Source of the DNA: Spirochaetia bacterium
GTDB taxonomy: Bacteria; Spirochaetota; Spirochaetia; CADAEX01
Reading direction: 5' to 3'
DNA length: 64,000 bases
NCBI GenBank assembly: GCA_045606105.1
Contig: JAZURI010000005.1
Location: 1-64,000 of the forward strand
The notes under the pieces are model-generated. The model was not told where the DNA came from. It worked only from the letters and a program-made list of their open reading frames with translations, and made no database searches. Every line of letters begins with the position of its first letter. Positions within the stretch are counted from its first letter, which is position 1. This document shows, piece after piece, positions 16,913 through 26,523 of this stretch. The translations under genes and the position numbers were made by a program.

Positions 16913-17029
16913 ACCTAATGTGATGAATCTACACATACCATGTCAATATTCATGATAACAGGTGTAGGATCCGGAGCCGGTACAGGAGGAACTGTTGCGG
17001 CAGAACAAAGTGTACTGTATAATAGACTT

Positions 17030-17497
17030 ATGTCTGAGGAAAAAGAATTTTACAAAAACAAAACCTTAGAGGAAATGACCCCGGAAGAATGGGAAATGCT
17101 CTGCGACGGATGCGGCAAATGCTGTTATAACAAGTATATAACGGGCAGGGGAAAAAACACCAGGCTTTATTATACCAGCGTGAGCTGTAATTTTCTGGAT
17201 GTCGGAACAGGGCGGTGCATGGATTATGAAAACCGGTTCAGGAACAACAGGAACTGCCTGAAACTCTCATTACGCAACCTGAAGGAATTCACATGGCTGC
17301 CGGAAACCTGTGCATACAGGCTGATATATGAAGGAAAGAATCTTCCGGACTGGCATCCTCTGATAAGCGGCATTCCCGTTGCGGAAAATCCGGCGGCCCG
17401 GGAATACCTGATAAAAAACGGAATCCGCGAATCCGAAGCAGAATACTGGGAAGACCATGTAATAAGCTGCTGCAGGTTGACCGATCTACAACAGTAG
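17030..17497 (+). CDS. ycgN: YcgN/UPF0260 cysteine-cluster protein
   Basis: EWEMLCDGCGKCC, WLPETCAYR, WHPLISG; stop codon lies within the terminal CRISPR repeat. Confidence 0.88.
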   Translation: MSEEKEFYKNKTLEEMTPEEWEMLCDGCGKCCYNKYITGRGKNTRLYYTSVSCNFLDVGTGRCMDYENRFRNNRNCLKLSLRNLKEFTWLPETCAYRLIYEGKNLPDWHPLISGIPVAENPAAREYLIKNGIRESEAEYWEDHVISCCRLTDLQQ

Positions 17498-18947
17498 AAA
17501 TTTACTTAGAAGTCTAAACTAACCCATTTCCTGAAGCCATTCCAATCTACAACAGTAGAAATTTACTTAGAAGTCTAAACGGTGCGGCGTAGTCGTTATC
17601 ATCCAATCTACAACAGTAGAAATTTACTTAGAAGTCTAAACGCTCGGTGATAGCCTGGCCGAATTCAATCTACAACAGTAGAAATTTACTTAGAAGTCTA
17701 AACAAGTTGTAAAACCCATTGACCATTTGATCTACAACAGTAGAAATTTACTTAGAAGTCTAAACGATTTCATAAGCTTCTGATAGTTCATATCTACAAC
17801 AGTAGAAATTTACTTAGAAGTCTAAACACGATAGCAATAAACCAATACATCAAAATCTACAACAGTAGAAATTTACTTAGAAGTCTAAACTTTTCTGATA
17901 TTAGTGATATTATCTATCTACAACAGTAGAAATTTACTTAGAAGTCTAAACTTTTCTGATATTACTGATATTATCTATCTACAACAGTAGAAATTTACTT
18001 AGAAGTCTAAACAAGTTGCAAAACCCATTGACCATTTGATCTACAACAGTAGAAATTTACTTAGAAGTCTAAACGAAAGTGGTTAGAATAACAGGCAATT
18101 AATCTACAACAGTAGAAATTTACTTAGAAGTCTAGACTCTTTATTGGTTTTGACACCATCTTTATCTACAACAGTAGAAATTTACTTAGAAGTCTAAACT
18201 CTTGAGCTACTGTCTTCAAATCATACATCTACAACAGTAGAAATTTACTTAGAAGTCTAAACCGATTAAGCTCGGCGATTACCCGGTGATCTACAACAGT
18301 AGAAATTTACTTAGAAGTCTAAACAGGTCCAACTTCTACGATGTTCTGCCAATCTACAACAGTAGAAATTTACTTAGAAGTCTAAACGCTCCGCCTCTCA
18401 ATTCATTGCCTCCATCTACAACAGTAGAAATTTACTTAGAAGTCTAAACTTATCTAAATTCAAAGAAGCTTATGAATCTACAACAGTAGAAATTTACTTA
18501 GAAGTCTAAACGTGAATATATGTATATGGGAATTAAGATCTACAACAGTAGAAATTTACTTAGAAGTCTAAACCGGCAAAAACTTCAGGTAGAACATCAA
18601 TCTACAACAGTAGAAATTTACTTAGAAGTCTAAACTATAGATTCAAGATATGACTGAAACCATCTACAACAGTAGAAATTTACTTAGAAGTCTAAACCGG
18701 CAAAAACCTCAGGTAGAACATCAATCTACAACAGTAGAAATTTACTTAGAAGTCTAAACAGTGTTTCTGTCATTTTTTATCTCCTTATCTACAACAGTAG
18801 AAATTTACTTAGAAGTCTAAACCGAAATCAAGTTCATCTTCCACCTCCTATCTACAACAGTAGAAATTTACTTAGAAGTCTAAACTTCCCGAGGACTGTC
18901 TTGCCGTCCGTATCTACAACAGTAGAAATTTACTTAGAAGTCTAAAC
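17484..18947 (-). CRISPR. Type V-A CRISPR array: 24 repeats of 36 nt, 23 spacers of 25-27 nt
   Basis: Repeat GTTTAGACTTCTAAGTAAATTTCTACTGTTGTAGAT with the Cas12a handle AATTTCTAC-TGTT-GTAGAT; one variant base at 18135. Confidence 0.99.
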
Positions 18948-19053
18948 TCTAACAGTGGGTACAACAGTACCAAAATGGGCTTTTTCTTCAAAGTTTTCAA
19001 AGTTAAGCCTATATAAATTACTGATTTTTCTCAGTAAGACCATAGGTCTGCAA
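18948..19053 (-). promoter_or_regulatory. CRISPR leader
   Basis: AT-rich non-coding segment between the cas2 stop and the first repeat. Confidence 0.8.
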
Positions 19054-19329
19054 TCAACTGATAAGAAAAATTTCTTTCTCTTCATTCTTTGCATATCCAT
19101 AACATGTCTTTTTGCAGCTTTCACTTAATTCAAATATAATAATACTATCTTCTTCTGTAAAGTGTCTTGAATAGATATTTTCTATTTCTGTCTTTATGTT
19201 TCTTAAAACGGTTTCGCTATTGTGTATCTCAAACACCGAATACTGAAGCCGAAAACCGAATTTAGCCAAAAATTTAGAAAATCGTGTTCTGATTTTATCA
19301 TTACTTATGTCATAACTTACCAGAAGCAT
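19054..19329 (-). CDS. cas2: CRISPR-associated Cas2
   Basis: LVSYDIS, RLQYSVFE; 91 aa. Confidence 0.96.
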   Translation of the reverse strand: MLLVSYDISNDKIRTRFSKFLAKFGFRLQYSVFEIHNSETVLRNIKTEIENIYSRHFTEEDSIIIFELSESCKKTCYGYAKNEEKEIFLIS

Positions 19330-20300
19330 CAGGTTTCCTCCAGATAAAAAACCGGAAATTCCCCGGCCGGCTTATCCCTCATAAACGCCCTGTAATAGGA
19401 TTGGATATAAATGAATATTTCATTTTTATATTCCATCAAGGTCTCCAGGAGTATTCCAATATACTTCTTTGAATTTTTCCAGGGAAGAATATATTGATTC
19501 TGATTTTTCCAGAAATCCTTTTCGTTGACCTGACCAAGATTCAATGTCTTCAATATTGCAGCATCAATAATAGGTCGAAATGGTTCTTCCAGATCACACA
19601 CCAGAGATTTTCTATGAAAAAACTGAGTGTGCAGAATTCCCACATAGACATCAAAACCGTACATTTCAAGCAAAGCATTTACTATATTGAATAAAATTGT
19701 ATAACCTATATCCATCAATGTGTTTGTAATGTCATTCTTTACCCTGGGCTGCCGGGCTTTCCAGTTATAATCAGCAAACATAGTCTTAAAATATAATTTT
19801 GCACTTACCCCTTCGATTCCCATTATTTCCTGAACTGACAAACCTGCTTCCAGAACGTCTTTTTCATACTGTTCCAATTTAGCTATGATGATTTTTTCTT
19901 CTTCAGTCTTCTTTCGTTTCTTTTTCAACAAAAATGCCTGATTATGAATTTTGTTTGCAATTACGTGGGAAGCAATTTCTGTCTTATCGTATGCATACTG
20001 CTTCTGTCGAAGCAAAACATTTCCCTCTGCTTTTGATGGAAGGATTGAAGTAATCCTCAGATTTGGGCTCATGAAAACTATTGTATATCCAAACTTCTTA
20101 GATCGATCCAGCAGCCCGCTTGTCAGACAGAAGTCTCCGCATATGAACAATGCAAACAACCGGTAACAGGTTGATTGATGTTTTATTTTTCCATCTCTGT
20201 CAGTTACTATAAAGTTATCGTTCTTGAAACTCAGCTTTTCTCCGTCCGATGTAAATACAAAAGCAATCTGCTTATGCTCAAAATCTCTTGTACTCATCAT
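19329..20300 (-). CDS. cas1: Type V Cas1
   Basis: MGIEG, GILH, SLVCDLEEPFRP motifs. Confidence 0.95.
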   Translation of the reverse strand: MMSTRDFEHKQIAFVFTSDGEKLSFKNDNFIVTDRDGKIKHQSTCYRLFALFICGDFCLTSGLLDRSKKFGYTIVFMSPNLRITSILPSKAEGNVLLRQKQYAYDKTEIASHVIANKIHNQAFLLKKKRKKTEEEKIIIAKLEQYEKDVLEAGLSVQEIMGIEGVSAKLYFKTMFADYNWKARQPRVKNDITNTLMDIGYTILFNIVNALLEMYGFDVYVGILHTQFFHRKSLVCDLEEPFRPIIDAAILKTLNLGQVNEKDFWKNQNQYILPWKNSKKYIGILLETLMEYKNEIFIYIQSYYRAFMRDKPAGEFPVFYLEET

Positions 20301-20882
20301 CTAAAAGCCTCCGTTATATTCCTTGGGAGCTAAAGGTCGGTCGCAGAAATCATTATAAATACATTTTTTACATTTTTCTTCATTCTGGGGAACAAATGCA
20401 TTCATATCAAAATTCTGCATTGCTTTGTTTGTTGCTTTAAACTTTTCAAACATCTGAACATCATCTTCCGGTAAAGGAACCGGATAAACTTTGTTATCGT
20501 CGCTGGAATAAAATCTAAGTTGTTTTACAGTATATCCCATCTCTCTGAGACAAAGGCACTGGGCATACAGTTGAAAAACGTATCCGTCATAAATTGTTTC
20601 AATATGCTTTTTTCGTTCTGTAAGTAATCCTTTTTCAATATCAAAAATATCTATTTTACCGCATAATTTATATTCATCAGAATAAATATCCAGACCTTGT
20701 AGAATATTTTTATGGGTAGAATACCGTTTTTCATCTATAGCCTCATGAGCAGCTTTCCCGTCAAGCTGGGCAGAACCATAGTATAGCCGTTCGGAAAGAC
20801 TGCCGTAAAGCTGATGATAATAAATGGAAAGAGGACAGAATATGAAATCATTCAAATAACTAATTCTTAGGTAAAGTTCCAT
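20301..20882 (-). CDS. cas4: Type V Cas4
   Basis: FCP, GKID, ERK, QLYAQ, CxxCxxxxxC Fe-S ligands. Confidence 0.93.
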   Translation of the reverse strand: MELYLRISYLNDFIFCPLSIYYHQLYGSLSERLYYGSAQLDGKAAHEAIDEKRYSTHKNILQGLDIYSDEYKLCGKIDIFDIEKGLLTERKKHIETIYDGYVFQLYAQCLCLREMGYTVKQLRFYSSDDNKVYPVPLPEDDVQMFEKFKATNKAMQNFDMNAFVPQNEEKCKKCIYNDFCDRPLAPKEYNGGF

Positions 20883-21723
20883 TTTCAGGCTCTTGGTTTA
20901 CTAAATAATTTTCTGAAGAAATTACTGAATGCCCCAACTCCTTTTCTGTCTGCTTCCGGGCAATTCCTGCAACATTTCCGCCGCGGCTTGCAACTTTTTT
21001 GTTTTCATTAAAAGTTTCCGGTTTTTCCTGCTGCGAAATCTCTGTTGTAACACGCTCCCCAAGCATGGTAAAAATCAACTCCAGGTCTGTCATGTGATCA
21101 CGCAGATTCTGATTTTTTTTAGTTAAACCTTTATATGTCTTATATTCAGAAGGTGTCAGTCCAAAAGTCGCTTTTGAAATTTCTGCTGTTAGAATCGCAA
21201 AATCTTTTTCTTTTGTAATTCCACGCTCTTTCCATTCATCAGTTAAATTTTGACGAATTGCAATTCCTCGTAACCGTTTATCTATCCAATCTTTTGGGTA
21301 ACCTTTTTTCTCGTAAAGCTCTTTCATTCTTTCTTGAGAAAGTTCTGGATTTTCAATTTCTTGTATGCGTTCATATCCAACTTGCGCAAGCCATTGCTTA
21401 AAAGGTTCAGCCTTTGGAGATGGGATAGATTGAATTATACGAAGAATAGATTTTACATTGGCTGAAAGAGTCTTTCTTTTTACCCCGGCTGCAGTATACA
21501 TTTCTACCTGGGGACAATTTGTCCCCAGGAAACTTCCGAGACTTTCATCTCTTTTTCTTAATTTTTTCAAATAATCTGTAGGATTTACGCTTTCTGTCAG
21601 AACTCCTACAACATCAACAACAGAAAAATACCACTGTTCTTCTTCTTCATTCCAAACAGACCGGATTTTACCATCCTGAAAGATTTTAATATGTTGCAAA
21701 GATTTTTCAGAATTATTTTGCAT
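20860..21723 (-). CDS. Bro-N domain (antirepressor-like) protein with DinD-like C-terminal region
   Basis: IRSVW..WYFSVVDVV, IQSIPSPKAEPFKQWLAQVG, NLRDHMTDLELIF. Confidence 0.8.
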   Translation of the reverse strand: MQNNSEKSLQHIKIFQDGKIRSVWNEEEEQWYFSVVDVVGVLTESVNPTDYLKKLRKRDESLGSFLGTNCPQVEMYTAAGVKRKTLSANVKSILRIIQSIPSPKAEPFKQWLAQVGYERIQEIENPELSQERMKELYEKKGYPKDWIDKRLRGIAIRQNLTDEWKERGITKEKDFAILTAEISKATFGLTPSEYKTYKGLTKKNQNLRDHMTDLELIFTMLGERVTTEISQQEKPETFNENKKVASRGGNVAGIARKQTEKELGHSVISSENYLVNQEPENGTLPKN

Positions 21724-24700
21724 ATTCTTTGTCCTGCACAAACTTGAACCAATCGGCATGAGAAATATTCTGTATTACACCCTTTTCATCACGGTTAAAA
21801 TTATTTTGCAATAAATACAAGCCTTTTAATGCAATATGATATGCCCCGTTTGCATCTGCATCTATTGGCAACTTTGCATTTTTACCTTTTTTAGCTTCTT
21901 CCCTGGAATCAAAGAATGTTCCGTCTTCTGATTTTACAGGAGAAATTAAGTAGTCAATTTCTGTGTTTGGAATAGAATTTCTCATTTGCAAAATTGCATT
22001 AAACATTCTTAAAAGTGTATCAAAAAATTTTGCATTTGATTTTTCAGCTTGGATTGTATGGACGGAATCAATAAAATTATCTTCATTATTCCAATTTATT
22101 CCAAAGTCATCAAAAATATTCTTTAACTGTTCTGTTGGATTTATACTAATATTCATGCGTTCTGCTTTATTGTAAACAAGTCGTTCTCCTTTTGTGTAAA
22201 CTTCCCACTTTTTCTTAAAATCAGCATTATCACAGATTTTTCCATAATCAAATCCAAATACAAAACAATCTTCTTTTGAATCATAACGTAGAGAATCAAA
22301 TTTTTCGAAAAACTCTTTTTTCTTTTCTACATTTGTTAATCCTTTTGTAATGAAAAGATTTGCAAAACCAGTTTTTGGATCAATTTTTGAAGTATAAGCT
22401 GCAGGGATATAGAAAAGCCATCCACATTGTTTATTAACATCACTTACATTTGCAGATTTATTTGTTAATTGATAAGCATTAAGAACTCCACCAGGCTCTG
22501 TTACCTTTTTATCTTTGAAAACAAGATAATTTAGCTTTTCAATTAACATATTTTCAAATTTTTGATAAATCTGTCTTTCTACAGCAAAACGACCTCGCTT
22601 AAATCCAAAATTCAAATCTTCCATAACAACAATTGCGTTATGTTCAACCATCATTTTTGCAATTTCATGAACAACAGCAGATAGATAGCCTTCTTTTAAT
22701 TCTTTGATATTTCCAATTGTTTGCCAGTTTTTACGAGCCTTGTCTCTGTCACCTTCTTTGTGTACAAGTTTTTCCTGATAATTTACTTTTACCGTTTTAT
22801 CATTTCTAACTTGGTCAACAAGATTCAATGTTTTTTGAAGTTCAATTTCACCTTTTTGATTTATTAATGAAAGATAAATAAGATGACGTTCTCCTCGATC
22901 CAATCCAATAATTTTTACATCAGTATTACCACTTAACACTTCAAGAACTTGATTATTAAATTCTTTATTTGATTTATCAGGTGCCTTAAAGTTCATTGTA
23001 ATAGGACAATGGAAAAGATAAGTATCTTCTATAAAGCGATTATCCTTTGTAATATCGTGAGTTGCTTCTTTACAAACAACAACTCCTGAATCTAACAATG
23101 ATTTTGCAGTTTCTGAAATAGTATCAGTCATTTTGTTTTTGAATTGATAAATTTCTTGATAAATGTCTTCTGGAATTGATTTTCCGTCATTTGTTGTTCT
23201 ATTTACAAGAATTGAACCTTTTTTGTGAACAGTTACTTTTTCTTTGTTCAAACTTGGTTTTCGCCAGAATAATTCTGCTTCTCCATTTAATTTTAGACAA
23301 ACATCTTTTAAATTTTCTTCACTAAAAAGATTTTCCCAATAAAGTGTATGAAGATTTTTCTTTCCAGAAGTTTTTGAAGCAAAGTCTTTGTTATAGATTT
23401 GGAAAAGGAAAAGTTTTCCTTCGTTTACTAGTTTATCAATATACTCCTTACGGATAGTAACAAATTGAATTTGATATGCCTGCGAATTTACATCATCTGT
23501 AAAACTTTGAAACGAATAATATTCTTTTGTTTCTTTGAAAATAAAATCATAAGCATCAAAGTATTCCTTTGTTAATACCTTATAATAATCAATATATTTT
23601 ATTAAGTCGTCTTTACTAAAAGTATCAGAAGTTCGAAGATATGATTTTCTTTTTCTAATTTCATTTATTTCTGTAGGTAAGTAAGCATTTCGATATTCTT
23701 CAATTTGTCTATTTACACCATCCGTATCTTTACGACCATTTTTTTTGACAGTTTTTCCATTAATCCTCAAAAGATTGGGAATATCTTTACTTGGATCAGC
23801 AGCCTGTAGATAAATCATTTTTTCATAATAATTTTCATTTTCCTTTGGTTTCGGATAACTTTTAAATTCATTATGAAAATTTTTATTCATAATACCTAAG
23901 TAATACTTTTCTTTTTCTCTTAATAAAATTGAACCATACATTAATTCATTATTCAAAGCCCAGCCTTTTGCACATGTAGGTGAATCAAAATTCAATTTTA
24001 TCTTCTTCATTTCACCAGGTTTCTTTGTTACAAAATTACGAACTTTGTTATACAAAGGAACAACTTGAGCAAGTGCTGTTAATATATCATCTAATTTTGA
24101 ATAAAAATTTGAATCCTTTTGTTCTTCACCACGATAATCAACAAGTTTTAAGTGATGGTAAAGATTTTGAACTTCGTCCAGATATACTTTTATTGGAGTG
24201 GCAGCTTCTTTCTCTTGTTGTAAATCATGAATATTTTCAAAATCTATTTTTTTAAAGGTCTTATTAATTTCACACAATAAATTTACTTCATAATTGTCAA
24301 TTGTTTCTTTTGTCAGAAAAAATTCCTTTACGGATTTTTCAGCTTCAAGTCCAAATTCTGAGCACCACCTCTCATATGCAGCCTGCATATCGGTTAACGA
24401 GTAATCACTTTCTGCAATTTCATTTTTTAGATTATCCAACTGTCTGTCTGTCAGATTTTTCTTTGCTTTATCTTTTGCTATCAGAAATAAACCTTCTGTT
24501 AAAATTGACCAAGAATTAAAAATTTTCTTGGAAAATTTTGTAATAGATTTTGAAGGTACGTATATTTCTGATAAATCATATTCTTCATTGTTATTCAACA
24601 AATCCCGAATTAATTCTATATATTCTTCAACTACCGACGAATTGAATTCTTTTATAGTTAAGTAAACTTCTTCATTATTTTCAAATCCAACCGGAATAAA

Positions 24701-25621
24701 AGAAGCTGTACCTCGATCGCTTAAAATCTGCTTATAGAGTTCTACCATTTTCTTTTTAAGTTTATACTTTTCTTCATTCGGCAAAGCTTGTCTAGCAAGG
24801 TTTATAAATTCATTTAGGCCTTTAATTTTCTCAGTCCCGGCTTCGCCGGAAATTCCACCGATTATTGTATTATAAAAATCAATTCCACTTTGAGCTATAA
24901 CACTGTTGAAACCATCAATGGTAAATACATAATCAAGAGCTCTGCCTTTTAGATGGTCTTTCAAAGACTTTTCCGTATCACTGATTATTTTTGGAAAATT
25001 AACTTTCAAATAATTATATAATTTGATATTTGCAAAAAATTTTGGAAAATTTTCATGCACAATACGGTAACTAATTGCAGTTGATTCTGCATCTGCACTG
25101 TACATGTTTTTCCTGTTCTCGTGAAAACCTACAAAATATGTACTGAATCTGTTAAAAGCAGCCAAAGCTTTCTGCTTATTTTTGATTTCGTCTTCAGGAG
25201 CATTTTTTATTAATTCAGGCAGAAGTTCCTTAAATAATCCATCCTTGAAAAGTTTATTATATTCTTTTTGAGCATGAAAACCCTCAACTATTTTTTTTCT
25301 TGCTATTGCTTGAAGTTTATCAAGTTTAACTTTATGGGAAGCTTTTTTTTCTCTATCTCTCTCGTTCTGAAGCAAATCAAGCTGATTAAATAAATCTTCC
25401 CAGGAAAATGAAAATTCTTTGAGTGATTTCTCTATGAAATTTCTATGAATATTATCTATAAGTTTTTTTATTTCAGGATACGCTTCAGCACGCTGGATAT
25501 CTGTTTTAAGAAACTGTTTTATATTTTCTTCAGTTTTTCCAATAGGTATTAATCTATTCCTCAAAGTAATAGAACGGGAATATCCGTTCTTCTGTCCGCA
25601 AAATTCATTTAAACCTTTCAT
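21713..25621 (-). CDS. cas12a: Type V-A effector Cas12a (Cpf1), about 1302 aa
   Basis: YSRSITLRNRLIP, NLHTLYW, RuvC motifs IGLDRGERHL / MEDLNFGFKRGR / DADANGAYHIALKG; ATG 25621 follows GGGGGAG. Confidence 0.98.
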   Translation of the reverse strand: MKGLNEFCGQKNGYSRSITLRNRLIPIGKTEENIKQFLKTDIQRAEAYPEIKKLIDNIHRNFIEKSLKEFSFSWEDLFNQLDLLQNERDREKKASHKVKLDKLQAIARKKIVEGFHAQKEYNKLFKDGLFKELLPELIKNAPEDEIKNKQKALAAFNRFSTYFVGFHENRKNMYSADAESTAISYRIVHENFPKFFANIKLYNYLKVNFPKIISDTEKSLKDHLKGRALDYVFTIDGFNSVIAQSGIDFYNTIIGGISGEAGTEKIKGLNEFINLARQALPNEEKYKLKKKMVELYKQILSDRGTASFIPVGFENNEEVYLTIKEFNSSVVEEYIELIRDLLNNNEEYDLSEIYVPSKSITKFSKKIFNSWSILTEGLFLIAKDKAKKNLTDRQLDNLKNEIAESDYSLTDMQAAYERWCSEFGLEAEKSVKEFFLTKETIDNYEVNLLCEINKTFKKIDFENIHDLQQEKEAATPIKVYLDEVQNLYHHLKLVDYRGEEQKDSNFYSKLDDILTALAQVVPLYNKVRNFVTKKPGEMKKIKLNFDSPTCAKGWALNNELMYGSILLREKEKYYLGIMNKNFHNEFKSYPKPKENENYYEKMIYLQAADPSKDIPNLLRINGKTVKKNGRKDTDGVNRQIEEYRNAYLPTEINEIRKRKSYLRTSDTFSKDDLIKYIDYYKVLTKEYFDAYDFIFKETKEYYSFQSFTDDVNSQAYQIQFVTIRKEYIDKLVNEGKLFLFQIYNKDFASKTSGKKNLHTLYWENLFSEENLKDVCLKLNGEAELFWRKPSLNKEKVTVHKKGSILVNRTTNDGKSIPEDIYQEIYQFKNKMTDTISETAKSLLDSGVVVCKEATHDITKDNRFIEDTYLFHCPITMNFKAPDKSNKEFNNQVLEVLSGNTDVKIIGLDRGERHLIYLSLINQKGEIELQKTLNLVDQVRNDKTVKVNYQEKLVHKEGDRDKARKNWQTIGNIKELKEGYLSAVVHEIAKMMVEHNAIVVMEDLNFGFKRGRFAVERQIYQKFENMLIEKLNYLVFKDKKVTEPGGVLNAYQLTNKSANVSDVNKQCGWLFYIPAAYTSKIDPKTGFANLFITKGLTNVEKKKEFFEKFDSLRYDSKEDCFVFGFDYGKICDNADFKKKWEVYTKGERLVYNKAERMNISINPTEQLKNIFDDFGINWNNEDNFIDSVHTIQAEKSNAKFFDTLLRMFNAILQMRNSIPNTEIDYLISPVKSEDGTFFDSREEAKKGKNAKLPIDADANGAYHIALKGLYLLQNNFNRDEKGVIQNISHADWFKFVQDKEYAK

Positions 25622-25632
25622 CTCTCCCCCTT

Positions 25633-26523
25633 TCAATCCTTCTTTACGACTTCGGCCATGCTTGTTACCAGACCGGCCATGTTCTGGATATCGGACGGAA
25701 CTATGATCTTGGTGGCTTTTCCGTCGGCGGCTTTTTCAAACGCCTCCAGGCCGCGGAGCCTGATTACGGCTTCATCAGGCATGGCTTCCTTGATCATCCT
25801 GATACCTTCTGCCTTTGCCTGCTGCACCTCAAGAATGGCCTGGGCCTCTCCTTTGGCCTTCTGTATTGCAGCCTCCTTCTCAGCCTCGGCCTGAAGTATC
25901 ATGGCCTGTTTTTCACCTTCTGCCACCAGGATTGCACTCTGCTTCTGTCCTTCGGCAATGAGAATCTGCTCCCGGCGTTCCCTTTCTGCCTTCATCTACT
26001 TTTCCATGGCATCCTTGATTGCTTCAGGTGGCATGATATTCTTCACCTCCACCCTGTTCACCTTGATTCCCCACGGATCTGTGGCTTCATCCAGGATACT
26101 TCTCATCTTGGTATTGATGATATCGCGGCTTGTAAGGGTCTGGTCCAGCTCCAGCTCTCCGATGATGTTTCTCAGAGTGGTGGCCGAAAGATTCTCAAGA
26201 GCGCTTACCGGCTGCTCAACTCCATAGGTAAACAGCTTCGGATCCGTAATCTGAAAATAGACAACGGTATCAATCATCATGGTTACATTATCCCTGGTAA
26301 TAACCGGCTGGGGAGGGAAATCGAGAACCCGTTCCTTGAGGGAAACGGTCTTTACTATTCTGTCGACAAACGGAAGCTTGATATGAATTCCCACATTCCA
26401 GGTACAGCTGTAGGTTCCCAGCCTCTCCAGAACAGAAGCATAGGACTGAGGAATAATTCTGATATTGGTAACAAGAAGAACTACCAGAATGACAAAAAGA
26501 GTGATACTTACATAAATGGACAT
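25633..26523 (-). pseudogene. SPFH/band-7 (QmcA-like) gene interrupted by an in-frame TAG at 25996-25998
   Basis: Reads AMEK*MKAERERR; the family normally has AMEKQMKAER; the two ORFs are contiguous and in frame. Confidence 0.8.

What the first reader, a model, noticed from the sequence alone, without database searches (positions are those of the whole stretch)
17704..18723. Three spacer pairs with identical ends that differ by exactly one base
Seen: 17704-17729 vs 18013-18038 (aagttgTaaaa/aagttgCaaaa, guide position 20); 17891-17915 vs 17952-17976 (attaGtgat/attaCtgat, position 12); 18574-18599 vs 18698-18723 (aaacTtcag/aaacCtcag, position 16). That is 6 of 23 spacers, with no exact duplicates, while I see only one variant base across 24 repeats. 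Duplication plus drift therefore fits poorly. Two pairs are non-adjacent, and two changes can be read as synonymous (TTA/TTG, GAA/GAG), which is weak evidence. Inference: precise re-acquisition of the same protospacer from variant or escape phages (priming-like updating), or a spacer-diversifying activity in this locus.
Basis: partly seen in the sequence, partly recalled or inferred. Interest (0 to 1): 0.8.

Follow-up and report, generated by a model that had tools for sequence, protein, structure and literature searches.

The report
Cas12a CRISPR array with near-twin spacers
A bacterial CRISPR immune array holds three pairs of memory spacers that differ by a single letter, most likely because the same spot of a slightly changed invader was sampled twice; this is unusual in number but probably ordinary in mechanism.

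Summary
A type V-A (Cas12a) array of 24 repeats and 23 spacers lies at 17484-18947 on the minus strand. Spacers 4/9, 7/8 and 18/20 have the same length and ends and differ at one base each (crRNA positions 20, 12, 16). There are no exact duplicates, and one repeat carries a variant base.

In 87 other V-A arrays (1,848 spacers) I found 46 exact-duplicate families and only 7 variant families, never more than 2 per array. The expectation for 23 spacers is 0.09 (Poisson P about 1e-4). Four of the six non-tandem variant pairs elsewhere differ in length at the PAM-distal end, which shows that V-A systems do sample the same PAM-anchored protospacer twice.

Duplication followed by drift fits poorly: it predicts about 17 repeat changes, and 1 is seen.

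Best reading (0.6): independent re-acquisition from variant invaders. Priming or a diversifying activity is not supported. A sister locus with the same Bro-N gene has 64 spacers and no such pair.

No protospacer was found in any collection. The public runs gave only contigs that break in the repeats, so assembly error is not excluded.

The parts
17484..18947 (-). Type V-A CRISPR array: 24 repeats of 36 nt, 23 spacers of 25-27 nt. The crRNA strand is the minus strand.
   Evidence: The repeat's 3' hairpin UCUAC-UGUU-GUAGA is seen.
17704..17729 (-). Spacer 4 (pair A, older copy; A at crRNA position 20)
18013..18038 (-). Spacer 9 (pair A, newer copy; G at crRNA position 20)
17891..17915 (-). Spacer 7 (pair B, older copy; C at crRNA position 12)
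17952..17976 (-). Spacer 8 (pair B, newer copy, adjacent to spacer 7; G at position 12)
18574..18599 (-). Spacer 18 (pair C, older copy; A at crRNA position 16)
18698..18723 (-). Spacer 20 (pair C, newer copy; G at position 16)
18102..18137 (-). The only variant repeat (one base, + strand 18135 A>G). It is not next to any of the pairs.
18948..19053 (-). Presumed leader between cas2 and the first repeat, so spacer 23 is the newest and spacer 1 the oldest. This is inferred from position.
   Evidence: The promoter-like sites are not above the shuffles.
19054..19329 (-). cas2
   Evidence: Pfam CRISPR_Cas2, E 9.8e-18
19329..20300 (-). cas1
   Evidence: Pfam Cas_Cas1, E 5.1e-51
20301..20882 (-). cas4
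   Evidence: Pfam Cas_Cas4, E 5.7e-09
20860..21759 (-). 299-aa ORF with a Bro-N domain between cas12a and cas4. Its C-terminal part weakly resembles DinD.
   Evidence: Pfam Bro-N, E 5e-10. NCBIfam PRK11525, 22.9 bits, far below its cut-off of 242. Same position in L047, L020 and L043.
21713..25636 (-). cas12a (1307 aa)
   Evidence: Pfam RuvC_1, REC1, NUC, Cpf1 REC2, Cpf1 PI

Best explanation

The three near-twin spacer pairs are most likely separate acquisition events. In each, Cas4-Cas1-Cas2 took the same PAM-anchored protospacer twice, from two sequence variants of the same invader lineage. The variants could be a drifted or escape variant, a related co-circulating phage or plasmid, or a near-identical paralogous copy.

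The PAM fixes the 5' end of the spacer and the Cas1-Cas2 ruler fixes its length, so the two copies share their ends.

The order from old to new is A, 5, 6, B, B', A' and later C, 19, C'. This reads as a first encounter followed by re-immunisation against a variant. Both copies are kept because each matches one circulating variant.

Shown: the anatomy of the locus, the pairs, their rarity elsewhere, and that V-A arrays elsewhere re-sample the same protospacer.

Inferred: that the two alleles exist in targets, that selection or acquisition hot spots drove the same choice, and the old-to-new order (from the leader's position).
For: (1) Locus anatomy comes, and the array and pairs.

(2) The background is 87 V-A arrays with 1,848 spacers, after dropping 17 redundant arrays. 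It holds 46 exact-duplicate families, of which 29 are purely adjacent, and only 7 variant families (1-3 differences) in 6 arrays. No array has more than 2. The expectation for 23 spacers is 0.087, Poisson P(>=3) = 1e-4.

(3) Of the 6 non-tandem variant families elsewhere, 4 share the PAM-proximal start but differ by 1 nt in length at the distal end (L160 x2, L053, L166). Unit duplication cannot produce that. V-A systems therefore demonstrably re-sample one protospacer from variants.

(4) Two of the three pairs here are non-adjacent, 5 and 2 units apart. Their neighbours are not co-duplicated, and the order A..B,B',A' is not that of a block duplication.

(5) Against drift, there are 3 differences in 77 aligned spacer positions and 1 in 864 repeat positions (Fisher p = 0.002). 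Equal neutral rates predict 16.8 repeat changes (P(<=1) = 9e-7). Counting only the 5' 17 nt of each repeat, the prediction is 7.9 (P = 0.003).

[quoted passage not shown] By my arithmetic, a duplicated 26-nt pair is then mutated before loss in about 52/(52+748) = 6.5% of cases, and three of three in about 3e-4.

(7) Biased protospacer sampling leading to independent acquisition of the same spacer is described by Kupczok et al. (PMC4524480, passages).

(8) Cas12a mismatches at any position, including PAM-distal ones, let phage escape (PMC10132644, abstract). Positions 12, 16 and 20 can therefore matter.
Against: No protospacer for any allele was found, so the existence of both alleles in targets and the PAM are untested.

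All three pairs have equal lengths. From the lengths of the 17 unpaired spacers, independent events with random length would agree three times with a probability of only about 0.03-0.07 (my arithmetic). Elsewhere, only 2 of 6 non-tandem variant pairs agree in length. This mildly favours a copying process, unless length is set by the protospacer sequence.

One pair (7/8) is adjacent, as most duplications are.

Three re-samplings in 23 spacers need strong hot spots or selection, and neither could be measured.

The window was picked out of a very large scan, so a 1e-4 outlier is expected somewhere.

No reads could be laid across the array.
Confidence: 0.6

Rival explanations
1. Repeat-spacer units were duplicated by replication slippage or recombination between repeats, and one copy of each pair later took a point mutation, by neutral drift or under selection from an escape phage.
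For: Exact duplicates are the common kind of repeated spacer in V-A arrays: 46 families in 1,848 spacers, 29 of them adjacent. Duplications are 695 of 805 duplication candidates in SpacerPlacer's Table 2. All three pairs here have identical lengths and ends, and pair 7/8 is adjacent. One tandem family elsewhere (L059) has a one-base variant copy.
Against: The array has zero exact duplicates against three mutated ones, while the background ratio is about 46 exact to at most 3 same-length variants. The 24 repeats carry 1 change where 16.8 (whole repeat) or 7.9 (5' part only) are expected at the same rate. Spacer deletion is 374 times faster than per-site mutation, giving about 3e-4 for three of three (my arithmetic). 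Two pairs are non-adjacent without co-duplicated neighbours, which needs extra deletions.
Confidence: 0.12
2. The pairs are an artefact: an assembly that mixes co-existing strain variants of one array, or consensus errors in real exact duplicates.
For: No read-level check was possible. The four public runs laid are k=31 contigs that stop 30 nt into the outermost repeats. Many genomes of this kind are metagenome bins, and CRISPR arrays are hard to assemble.
Against: The genome is clean (99.03% complete, 0.04% contamination, 11 contigs), and long ORFs such as cas12a are intact. A 2% error rate in six spacers alongside 1 change in 864 repeat bases is unlikely (Fisher p = 0.002). By my own reasoning, not tested, a strain bubble in a de Bruijn graph is merged or breaks the contig rather than being laid out as R-B-R-B'. 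The order A,5,6,B,B',A' does not follow from joining two co-linear strain arrays.
Confidence: 0.13
3. The array is a recombinant. Two strains each acquired their own version of the same hot-spot protospacers, and recombination at a repeat (for example between B and B') joined the two arrays.
For: The mirror order A..B | B',A' would fit a junction between spacers 7 and 8. Recombination between arrays is documented in some species (5 of 70 S. thermophilus strains; PMC4524480 abstract passage).
Against: It still needs independent sampling of the same protospacers, so it is a route within the best explanation rather than an alternative. It does not explain pair C (18/20) without a second event. 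Recombination is reported as rare. No related array sharing any spacer was found.
Confidence: 0.08
4. A dedicated process updates spacers. Either crRNA-loaded Cas12a stalled on a mismatched target hands that very protospacer to Cas4-Cas1-Cas2 (precise primed re-acquisition), or a locus-encoded activity, perhaps the Bro-N protein, diversifies spacers.
For: The pairs have equal lengths and ends, and there is an excess over other arrays. In the heterologous F. novicida V-A system, acquisition was much higher with catalytically active, crRNA-loaded Cas12 (PMC13034035, section 18). The Bro-N gene travels with the adaptation module: in L020 the Bro-N, Cas4, Cas1 and Cas2 proteins are 78-79% identical but Cas12a only 34%.
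Against: No priming was seen for V-A or V-B in another heterologous test (PMC9419969, passages). L047, with the same Bro-N module, has 64 spacers and no variant pair. L055 (Cas12a 75% identical over the 617 residues aligned) has 28 spacers and none. The changes (A>G, C>G, A>G) fit no single known mutator signature, which is my inference. No reverse transcriptase or mutator was looked for beyond the neighbouring ORFs.
Confidence: 0.07

Closest known systems
Type V-A CRISPR-Cas loci (Cas12a/Cpf1), e.g. Francisella novicida U112
   Same: Cas12a with RuvC, Nuc and REC domains. A cas4-cas1-cas2 adaptation module. A 36-nt repeat ending in the UCUACU-loop-GUAGAU hairpin. The array lies downstream of cas2 on the same strand.
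   Different: An extra Bro-N gene sits between cas12a and cas4. Spacers are 25-27 nt here, against mainly 27-29 bp reported for the Fn system.
Independent acquisition or re-acquisition of the same spacer through biased protospacer sampling (Kupczok et al. 2015; the 'reacquisitions' and 'independent insertions' classes of SpacerPlacer)
   Same: The same protospacer is represented more than once without block duplication.
   Different: Those classes are rare (8 + 7 of 805 duplication candidates among 24,090 spacers) and are scored on near-identical labels. Here three occur in one 23-spacer array, and each copy differs by one base.
Variant spacer pairs in other V-A arrays of my background set (G082/L160, G127/L162, G196/L166, L024, L053)
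   Same: Non-adjacent pairs with the same PAM-proximal start and 1-3 differences.
   Different: There are at most 2 per array, in arrays of 34-161 spacers, and 4 of 6 differ in length. Here there are 3 in 23 spacers, all of equal length.
Primed adaptation (types I-B, I-E, I-F, II-A)
   Same: The idea that an imperfectly matching old spacer is followed by renewed acquisition from the same invader.
   Different: Priming as described yields new spacers around the target site, not the same protospacer. It was not seen for V-A in one study, and no target genome is available here to map spacers.
Repeat-spacer unit duplication by replication slippage
   Same: Equal length and ends, and one adjacent pair.
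   Different: The copies are not identical, two pairs are non-adjacent, and the array has no exact duplicate.

Membership tests
Type V-A CRISPR-Cas | Single effector Cas12a with RuvC, Nuc and REC lobes | tested here: met
   Pfam RuvC_1 8.4e-96, REC1 1.1e-69, NUC 8.6e-43, Cpf1 REC2 4.4e-39, PI-like 1.8e-07
Type V-A CRISPR-Cas | Adaptation module cas4, cas1, cas2 next to the effector | tested here: met
   Pfam hits for all three, on the same strand and contiguous
Type V-A CRISPR-Cas | 36-nt repeat whose 3' end forms the crRNA handle hairpin, with the spacer 3' of the repeat in the crRNA | tested here: met
   24 repeats of 36 nt. The hairpin UCUAC/GUAGA is in the minimum-energy fold. The 19-mer is shared with more than 100 V-A arrays. 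That this hairpin is the Cas12a handle is recalled knowledge.
Type V-A CRISPR-Cas | T-rich 5' PAM (TTTV) at protospacers | not testable with these tools
   No protospacer was found
Independent re-acquisition of one protospacer from variant targets | Copies share the PAM-proximal boundary | tested here: met
   All three pairs start at the same base
Independent re-acquisition of one protospacer from variant targets | Copies are not part of a duplicated block and need not be adjacent | tested here: met
   Pairs 4/9 and 18/20 are 5 and 2 units apart with unrelated spacers between them. Pair 7/8 is adjacent.
Independent re-acquisition of one protospacer from variant targets | Both alleles exist in natural target populations | not testable with these tools
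   No target was found in the viral, metagenome, phage, plasmid or relatives' collections
Independent re-acquisition of one protospacer from variant targets | Independent trimming may give different PAM-distal ends (diagnostic when present) | tested here: inconclusive
   All three pairs have equal length. Elsewhere 4 of 6 non-tandem variant pairs differ in length.
Repeat-spacer unit duplication | Copies identical at birth, so most observed copies are exact | tested here: not met
   0 exact and 3 one-base variants here. The background has 46 exact families against 7 variant families.
Repeat-spacer unit duplication | Tandem or block arrangement | tested here: inconclusive
   1 of 3 pairs is adjacent. 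There is no block pattern.
Primed adaptation | Acquisition depends on a pre-existing partly matching spacer and the effector | not testable with these tools
   This needs an experiment. The literature for V-A conflicts.
Primed adaptation | New spacers cluster around the priming site on the target | not testable with these tools
   No target genome was found

The most novel reading that the evidence does not exclude
The pairs are the natural footprint of Cas12a-coupled updating. A crRNA-Cas12a complex that meets a target with a PAM-distal mismatch promotes capture of that same protospacer by Cas4-Cas1-Cas2, possibly helped by the Bro-N protein that travels with this adaptation module. The array would then gain a corrected copy with identical ends. 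That would be a precise form of priming not yet described for any class 2 system.
Probability: 0.07. Interest if true: 0.8.

Novelty: new member of a known kind. Interest (0 to 1): 0.35.

Why it matters
If the pairs are real on single molecules, this array is a compact natural record of a host re-immunising against point variants of the same invader at the very same site. It bears on two open questions for Cas12a systems. The first is how strongly acquisition is focused on a few protospacers in nature. The second is whether interference and adaptation are coupled in type V-A, where published tests disagree. It also shows that one-base spacer variants inside an array should not be merged with exact duplicates when array histories are reconstructed. 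In itself it does not reveal a new system.

Tried and rejected
Protospacer searches all failed:
- Exact scans of viral contigs with the three pairs, N at the variable base: 0 hits.
- Exact scans of viral contigs with neighbouring spacers 5, 6 and 19: 0 hits.
- Codon-wobble patterns for pair A gave 0 hits. For pair C there was 1 hit, L172. I rejected it because it is a GC-rich contig, it differs from the spacers at 6 of the 8 free positions by my reading, and GCGT rather than a T-rich PAM lies upstream.
- blastn of the whole array against phages returned low-scoring fragments that I judged noise, without inspecting the alignments. Against plasmids there was nothing.
- The own genome has no match of 16 nt or more with at most one mismatch that looks like a target.

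Searches of relatives:
- The exact repeat was not found in the 40 relatives searched.
- The array was blasted against the 20 genomes of the order and 401 of the class, with follow-up on 5 genomes. This gave only other V-A arrays and short matches.
- Several of those short matches fall on spacer 21, which looks like a ribosome-binding site plus ATG.
- One is a 21/25 match of spacer 7 in L136, with TTCC upstream and mismatches at positions 1-2. I judged it chance.

Reads:
- The look-up of sequencing runs gave 10 runs with shares of 0.13 or less.
- Of the four runs I laid, three gave k=31 contigs that cover the flanks and stop 30 nt into the outer repeats, and X2 covered only the leader-side flank. 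None covered a full spacer-repeat unit of this array.
- This says nothing about the array's integrity or about spacer sharing, and I draw no conclusion from the uncovered parts.

Other points:
- I considered a diversity-generating (adenine-directed) mechanism and dropped it, because pair B is C>G.
- A grouping of spacers by GC content suggested bursts from an AT-rich source. By my hand calculation the runs test is not significant, so I do not use it.
- The sister species G001 has a 25-spacer V-A array with a different repeat, no shared spacer and no near-duplicate.
- I searched the literature for within-array one-base spacer variants and found general treatments but no dedicated description. 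This is not proof that none is in print.
- Supplements are closed and I did not ask for them. Supplementary data of PMC9419969 (spacer lengths per protospacer) and of PMC13034035 (hot-spot table S4) could bear on whether length and choice are reproducible per protospacer.

Full report
WHAT IS THERE

The region is a CRISPR array of 24 direct repeats of 36 nt (17484-18947) separated by 23 spacers of 25-27 nt. On the minus strand, directly upstream, lie five genes:
- cas12a (21713-25636, 1307 aa)
- a 299-aa ORF with a Bro-N domain (20860-21759)
- cas4 (20301-20882)
- cas1 (19329-20300)
- cas2 (19054-19329)

All were identified with Pfam. Read on the minus strand, the repeat ends in the hairpin UCUAC-UGUU-GUAGA followed by U. 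Its last 19 nt occur in more than 100 other arrays that sit beside Cas12a-type genes.

This is therefore a type V-A locus transcribed on the minus strand. The 106 nt between cas2 and the first repeat (18948-19053) are the presumed leader. By position, spacer 23 (18886-18911) is then the newest and spacer 1 the oldest. That polarity is inferred, not shown.

The genome is small (1.46 Mb, 11 contigs, 46% G+C) and has one such array.

THE OBSERVATION

It is correct in every detail. Spacers 4/9, 7/8 and 18/20 have the same length and ends and differ at one base each. In crRNA sense these are position 20 (A older, G newer), position 12 (C, G) and position 16 (A, G). No other spacer pair is within edit distance 8, and there is no exact duplicate. 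23 repeats are identical and one (18102-18137) has a single change.

Pair A is synonymous in 1 of 4 open frames, pair C in 2 of 4 and pair B in none.

IS IT UNUSUAL?

I collected V-A arrays from two sources:
- A scan of one genome per species with the 19-mer of the repeat.
- Arrays found by blasting this array against 401 genomes of the same class.

I dropped 17 arrays that repeated a larger one. That left 87 arrays with 1,848 spacers. Runs of fewer than 4 repeats were not counted. Repeats with a change in the hairpin motif split an array into pieces.

These arrays hold 46 families of exact duplicates, 29 of them purely adjacent. They hold only 7 families with 1-3 differences, in 6 arrays, and never more than 2 per array. 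At that rate 23 spacers should hold 0.087 variant families, giving a Poisson P for three or more of 1e-4.

The closest relatives of this locus show none:
- L047: same gene order including Bro-N, 76-82% protein identity, 64 spacers.
- L055: Cas12a 75% identical over the part present, 28 spacers.
- The sister species G001: 25 spacers.

The array is therefore a clear outlier. However, the window was chosen from a very large scan, so one such outlier is not surprising in itself. Events of this kind are also probably clustered rather than Poisson-distributed.

WHAT THE PAIRS ARE

Duplication of repeat-spacer units is the usual source of repeated spacers. It gives exact copies, which is what the background shows. 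To turn three exact pairs into three one-base variants by mutation needs about 2% change per site.
- The 24 repeats would then carry about 17 changes (P of 1 or fewer = 9e-7). Counting only their 5' halves, which are trimmed from the crRNA, they would carry about 8 (P = 0.003). One is seen.
- SpacerPlacer estimates that a spacer is deleted 374 times faster than a site mutates (PMC11472070, passage). By my arithmetic a duplicated pair is then mutated before loss in about 6.5% of cases, close to the background ratio, and three of three in about 3e-4.

The alternative is that the same protospacer was taken twice from slightly different targets. The background gives direct precedent. Of the six non-tandem variant pairs in other V-A arrays, four begin at the same base but end one base apart. 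A copying process cannot do that, while independent PAM-anchored capture with ruler trimming does.

Two of the three pairs here are non-adjacent and have unrelated spacers between them. The order A,5,6,B,B',A' is not that of a block duplication.

Independent acquisition of the same spacer through biased sampling has been proposed before (PMC4524480, passages). It is scored as rare in CRISPRCasdb: 15 of 805 duplication candidates among 24,090 spacers (PMC11472070, Table 2 passage).

Single mismatches anywhere in a Cas12a guide, including PAM-distal ones, allow phage escape in vivo (PMC10132644, abstract). A variant at position 12, 16 or 20 can therefore make renewed immunisation worthwhile.

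POINTS AGAINST MY READING

- I found no protospacer for any allele, so I could not check the PAM or show that both alleles exist in targets.
- All three pairs agree in length. From the lengths of the 17 unpaired spacers, this has a probability of about 0.03-0.07 if length were drawn afresh each time (my arithmetic). This mildly favours copying unless length is set by the local sequence.
- One pair is adjacent.
- I could not test the assembly. The public runs that hold this locus are stored as k=31 contigs that end inside the outer repeats.
- I give assembly or consensus artefact 0.13, because the genome is clean and the pattern does not follow from merging co-linear strain arrays. That argument is reasoning, not a test.

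Priming cannot be assessed without a target genome. One heterologous study saw no priming for V-A or V-B (PMC9419969, passages). A 2026 study of the Francisella system found much more acquisition with catalytically active, crRNA-loaded Cas12 (PMC13034035, section 18 read in full). Coupling of interference and adaptation in V-A is therefore open.

A diversifying activity tied to the Bro-N gene is not supported. The gene sits in the same place in three other loci (L047, L020, L043), and the only one of them with a long array has no variant pair.

In L020 the Bro-N, Cas4, Cas1 and Cas2 proteins are 78-79% identical to those here while Cas12a is only 34% identical. The gene thus travels with the adaptation module, which makes it worth a test in its own right.

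VERDICT

The most likely mechanism (0.6) is ordinary: repeated PAM-anchored acquisition of the same site from variant invaders. Duplication plus mutation gets 0.12, artefact 0.13, array recombination 0.08, and a dedicated updating process 0.07. The locus is a new member of a known kind. Interest is moderate, because the decisive data (reads across the array, and the targets) are not available here.

Noticed in passing
window 20860-21759 (-); L047 707-1537; L020 2508-3338; L043 3977-4753: A Bro-N-domain gene sits between cas12a and cas4 in four V-A loci from different lineages. In L020 it is 79% identical, together with Cas4, Cas1 and Cas2 (78-79%), while Cas12a is only 34% identical, so it travels with the adaptation module. 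It was found in 3 loci; cas4, cas1 and cas2 were each found in 45-53 loci. A literature search for Bro-N together with 'type V-A' or cas4 found no paper linking them.
   Followed up: partly
window 25633-26523 (-): A Band 7/SPFH gene just upstream of cas12a is split by one in-frame TAG (25996-25998), between ...AMEK and MKAERE.... This could be a nonsense mutation, a sequencing error or read-through.
   Followed up: partly
window 17766-17791 and 18450-18475: Spacers 5 and 16 share a 12-nt stretch in opposite orientation, containing AAGCTT. Only 2 of 300 shuffles reach that length. The flanks do not align, so it may be a repeated motif in the targets or chance.
   Followed up: partly
window spacers 4/9, 7/8, 18/20: In all three pairs the leader-proximal (newer) copy carries G in crRNA sense (A>G, C>G, A>G). 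With three cases this may be chance.
   Followed up: no
L160, L161 (G082:C5:1073500-1095500): A same-class genome has a V-A array of more than 300 spacers with dozens of exact duplicate units. Many are adjacent and some occur in blocks. It is either an unusually duplication-prone array or a long-read assembly effect.
   Followed up: no
window 18760-18786: In crRNA sense, spacer 21 reads like a ribosome-binding site followed by ATG. It gives weak matches in several genomes for that reason. It probably derives from a gene start.
   Followed up: partly
window 16940-17497 (+): The ORF with a CxxCxxCC domain ends 14 nt inside the trailer-end repeat, which starts at 17484.
   Followed up: no
window 17440-17518 and 18918-19060: Contigs of animal-gut runs X1, X2 and X8 match the array flanks. 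The differences seen were none for X1 and X2 and one for X8 (17488 A>G in the last repeat). The locus therefore occurs in such samples. Their spacers could not be read.
   Followed up: partly
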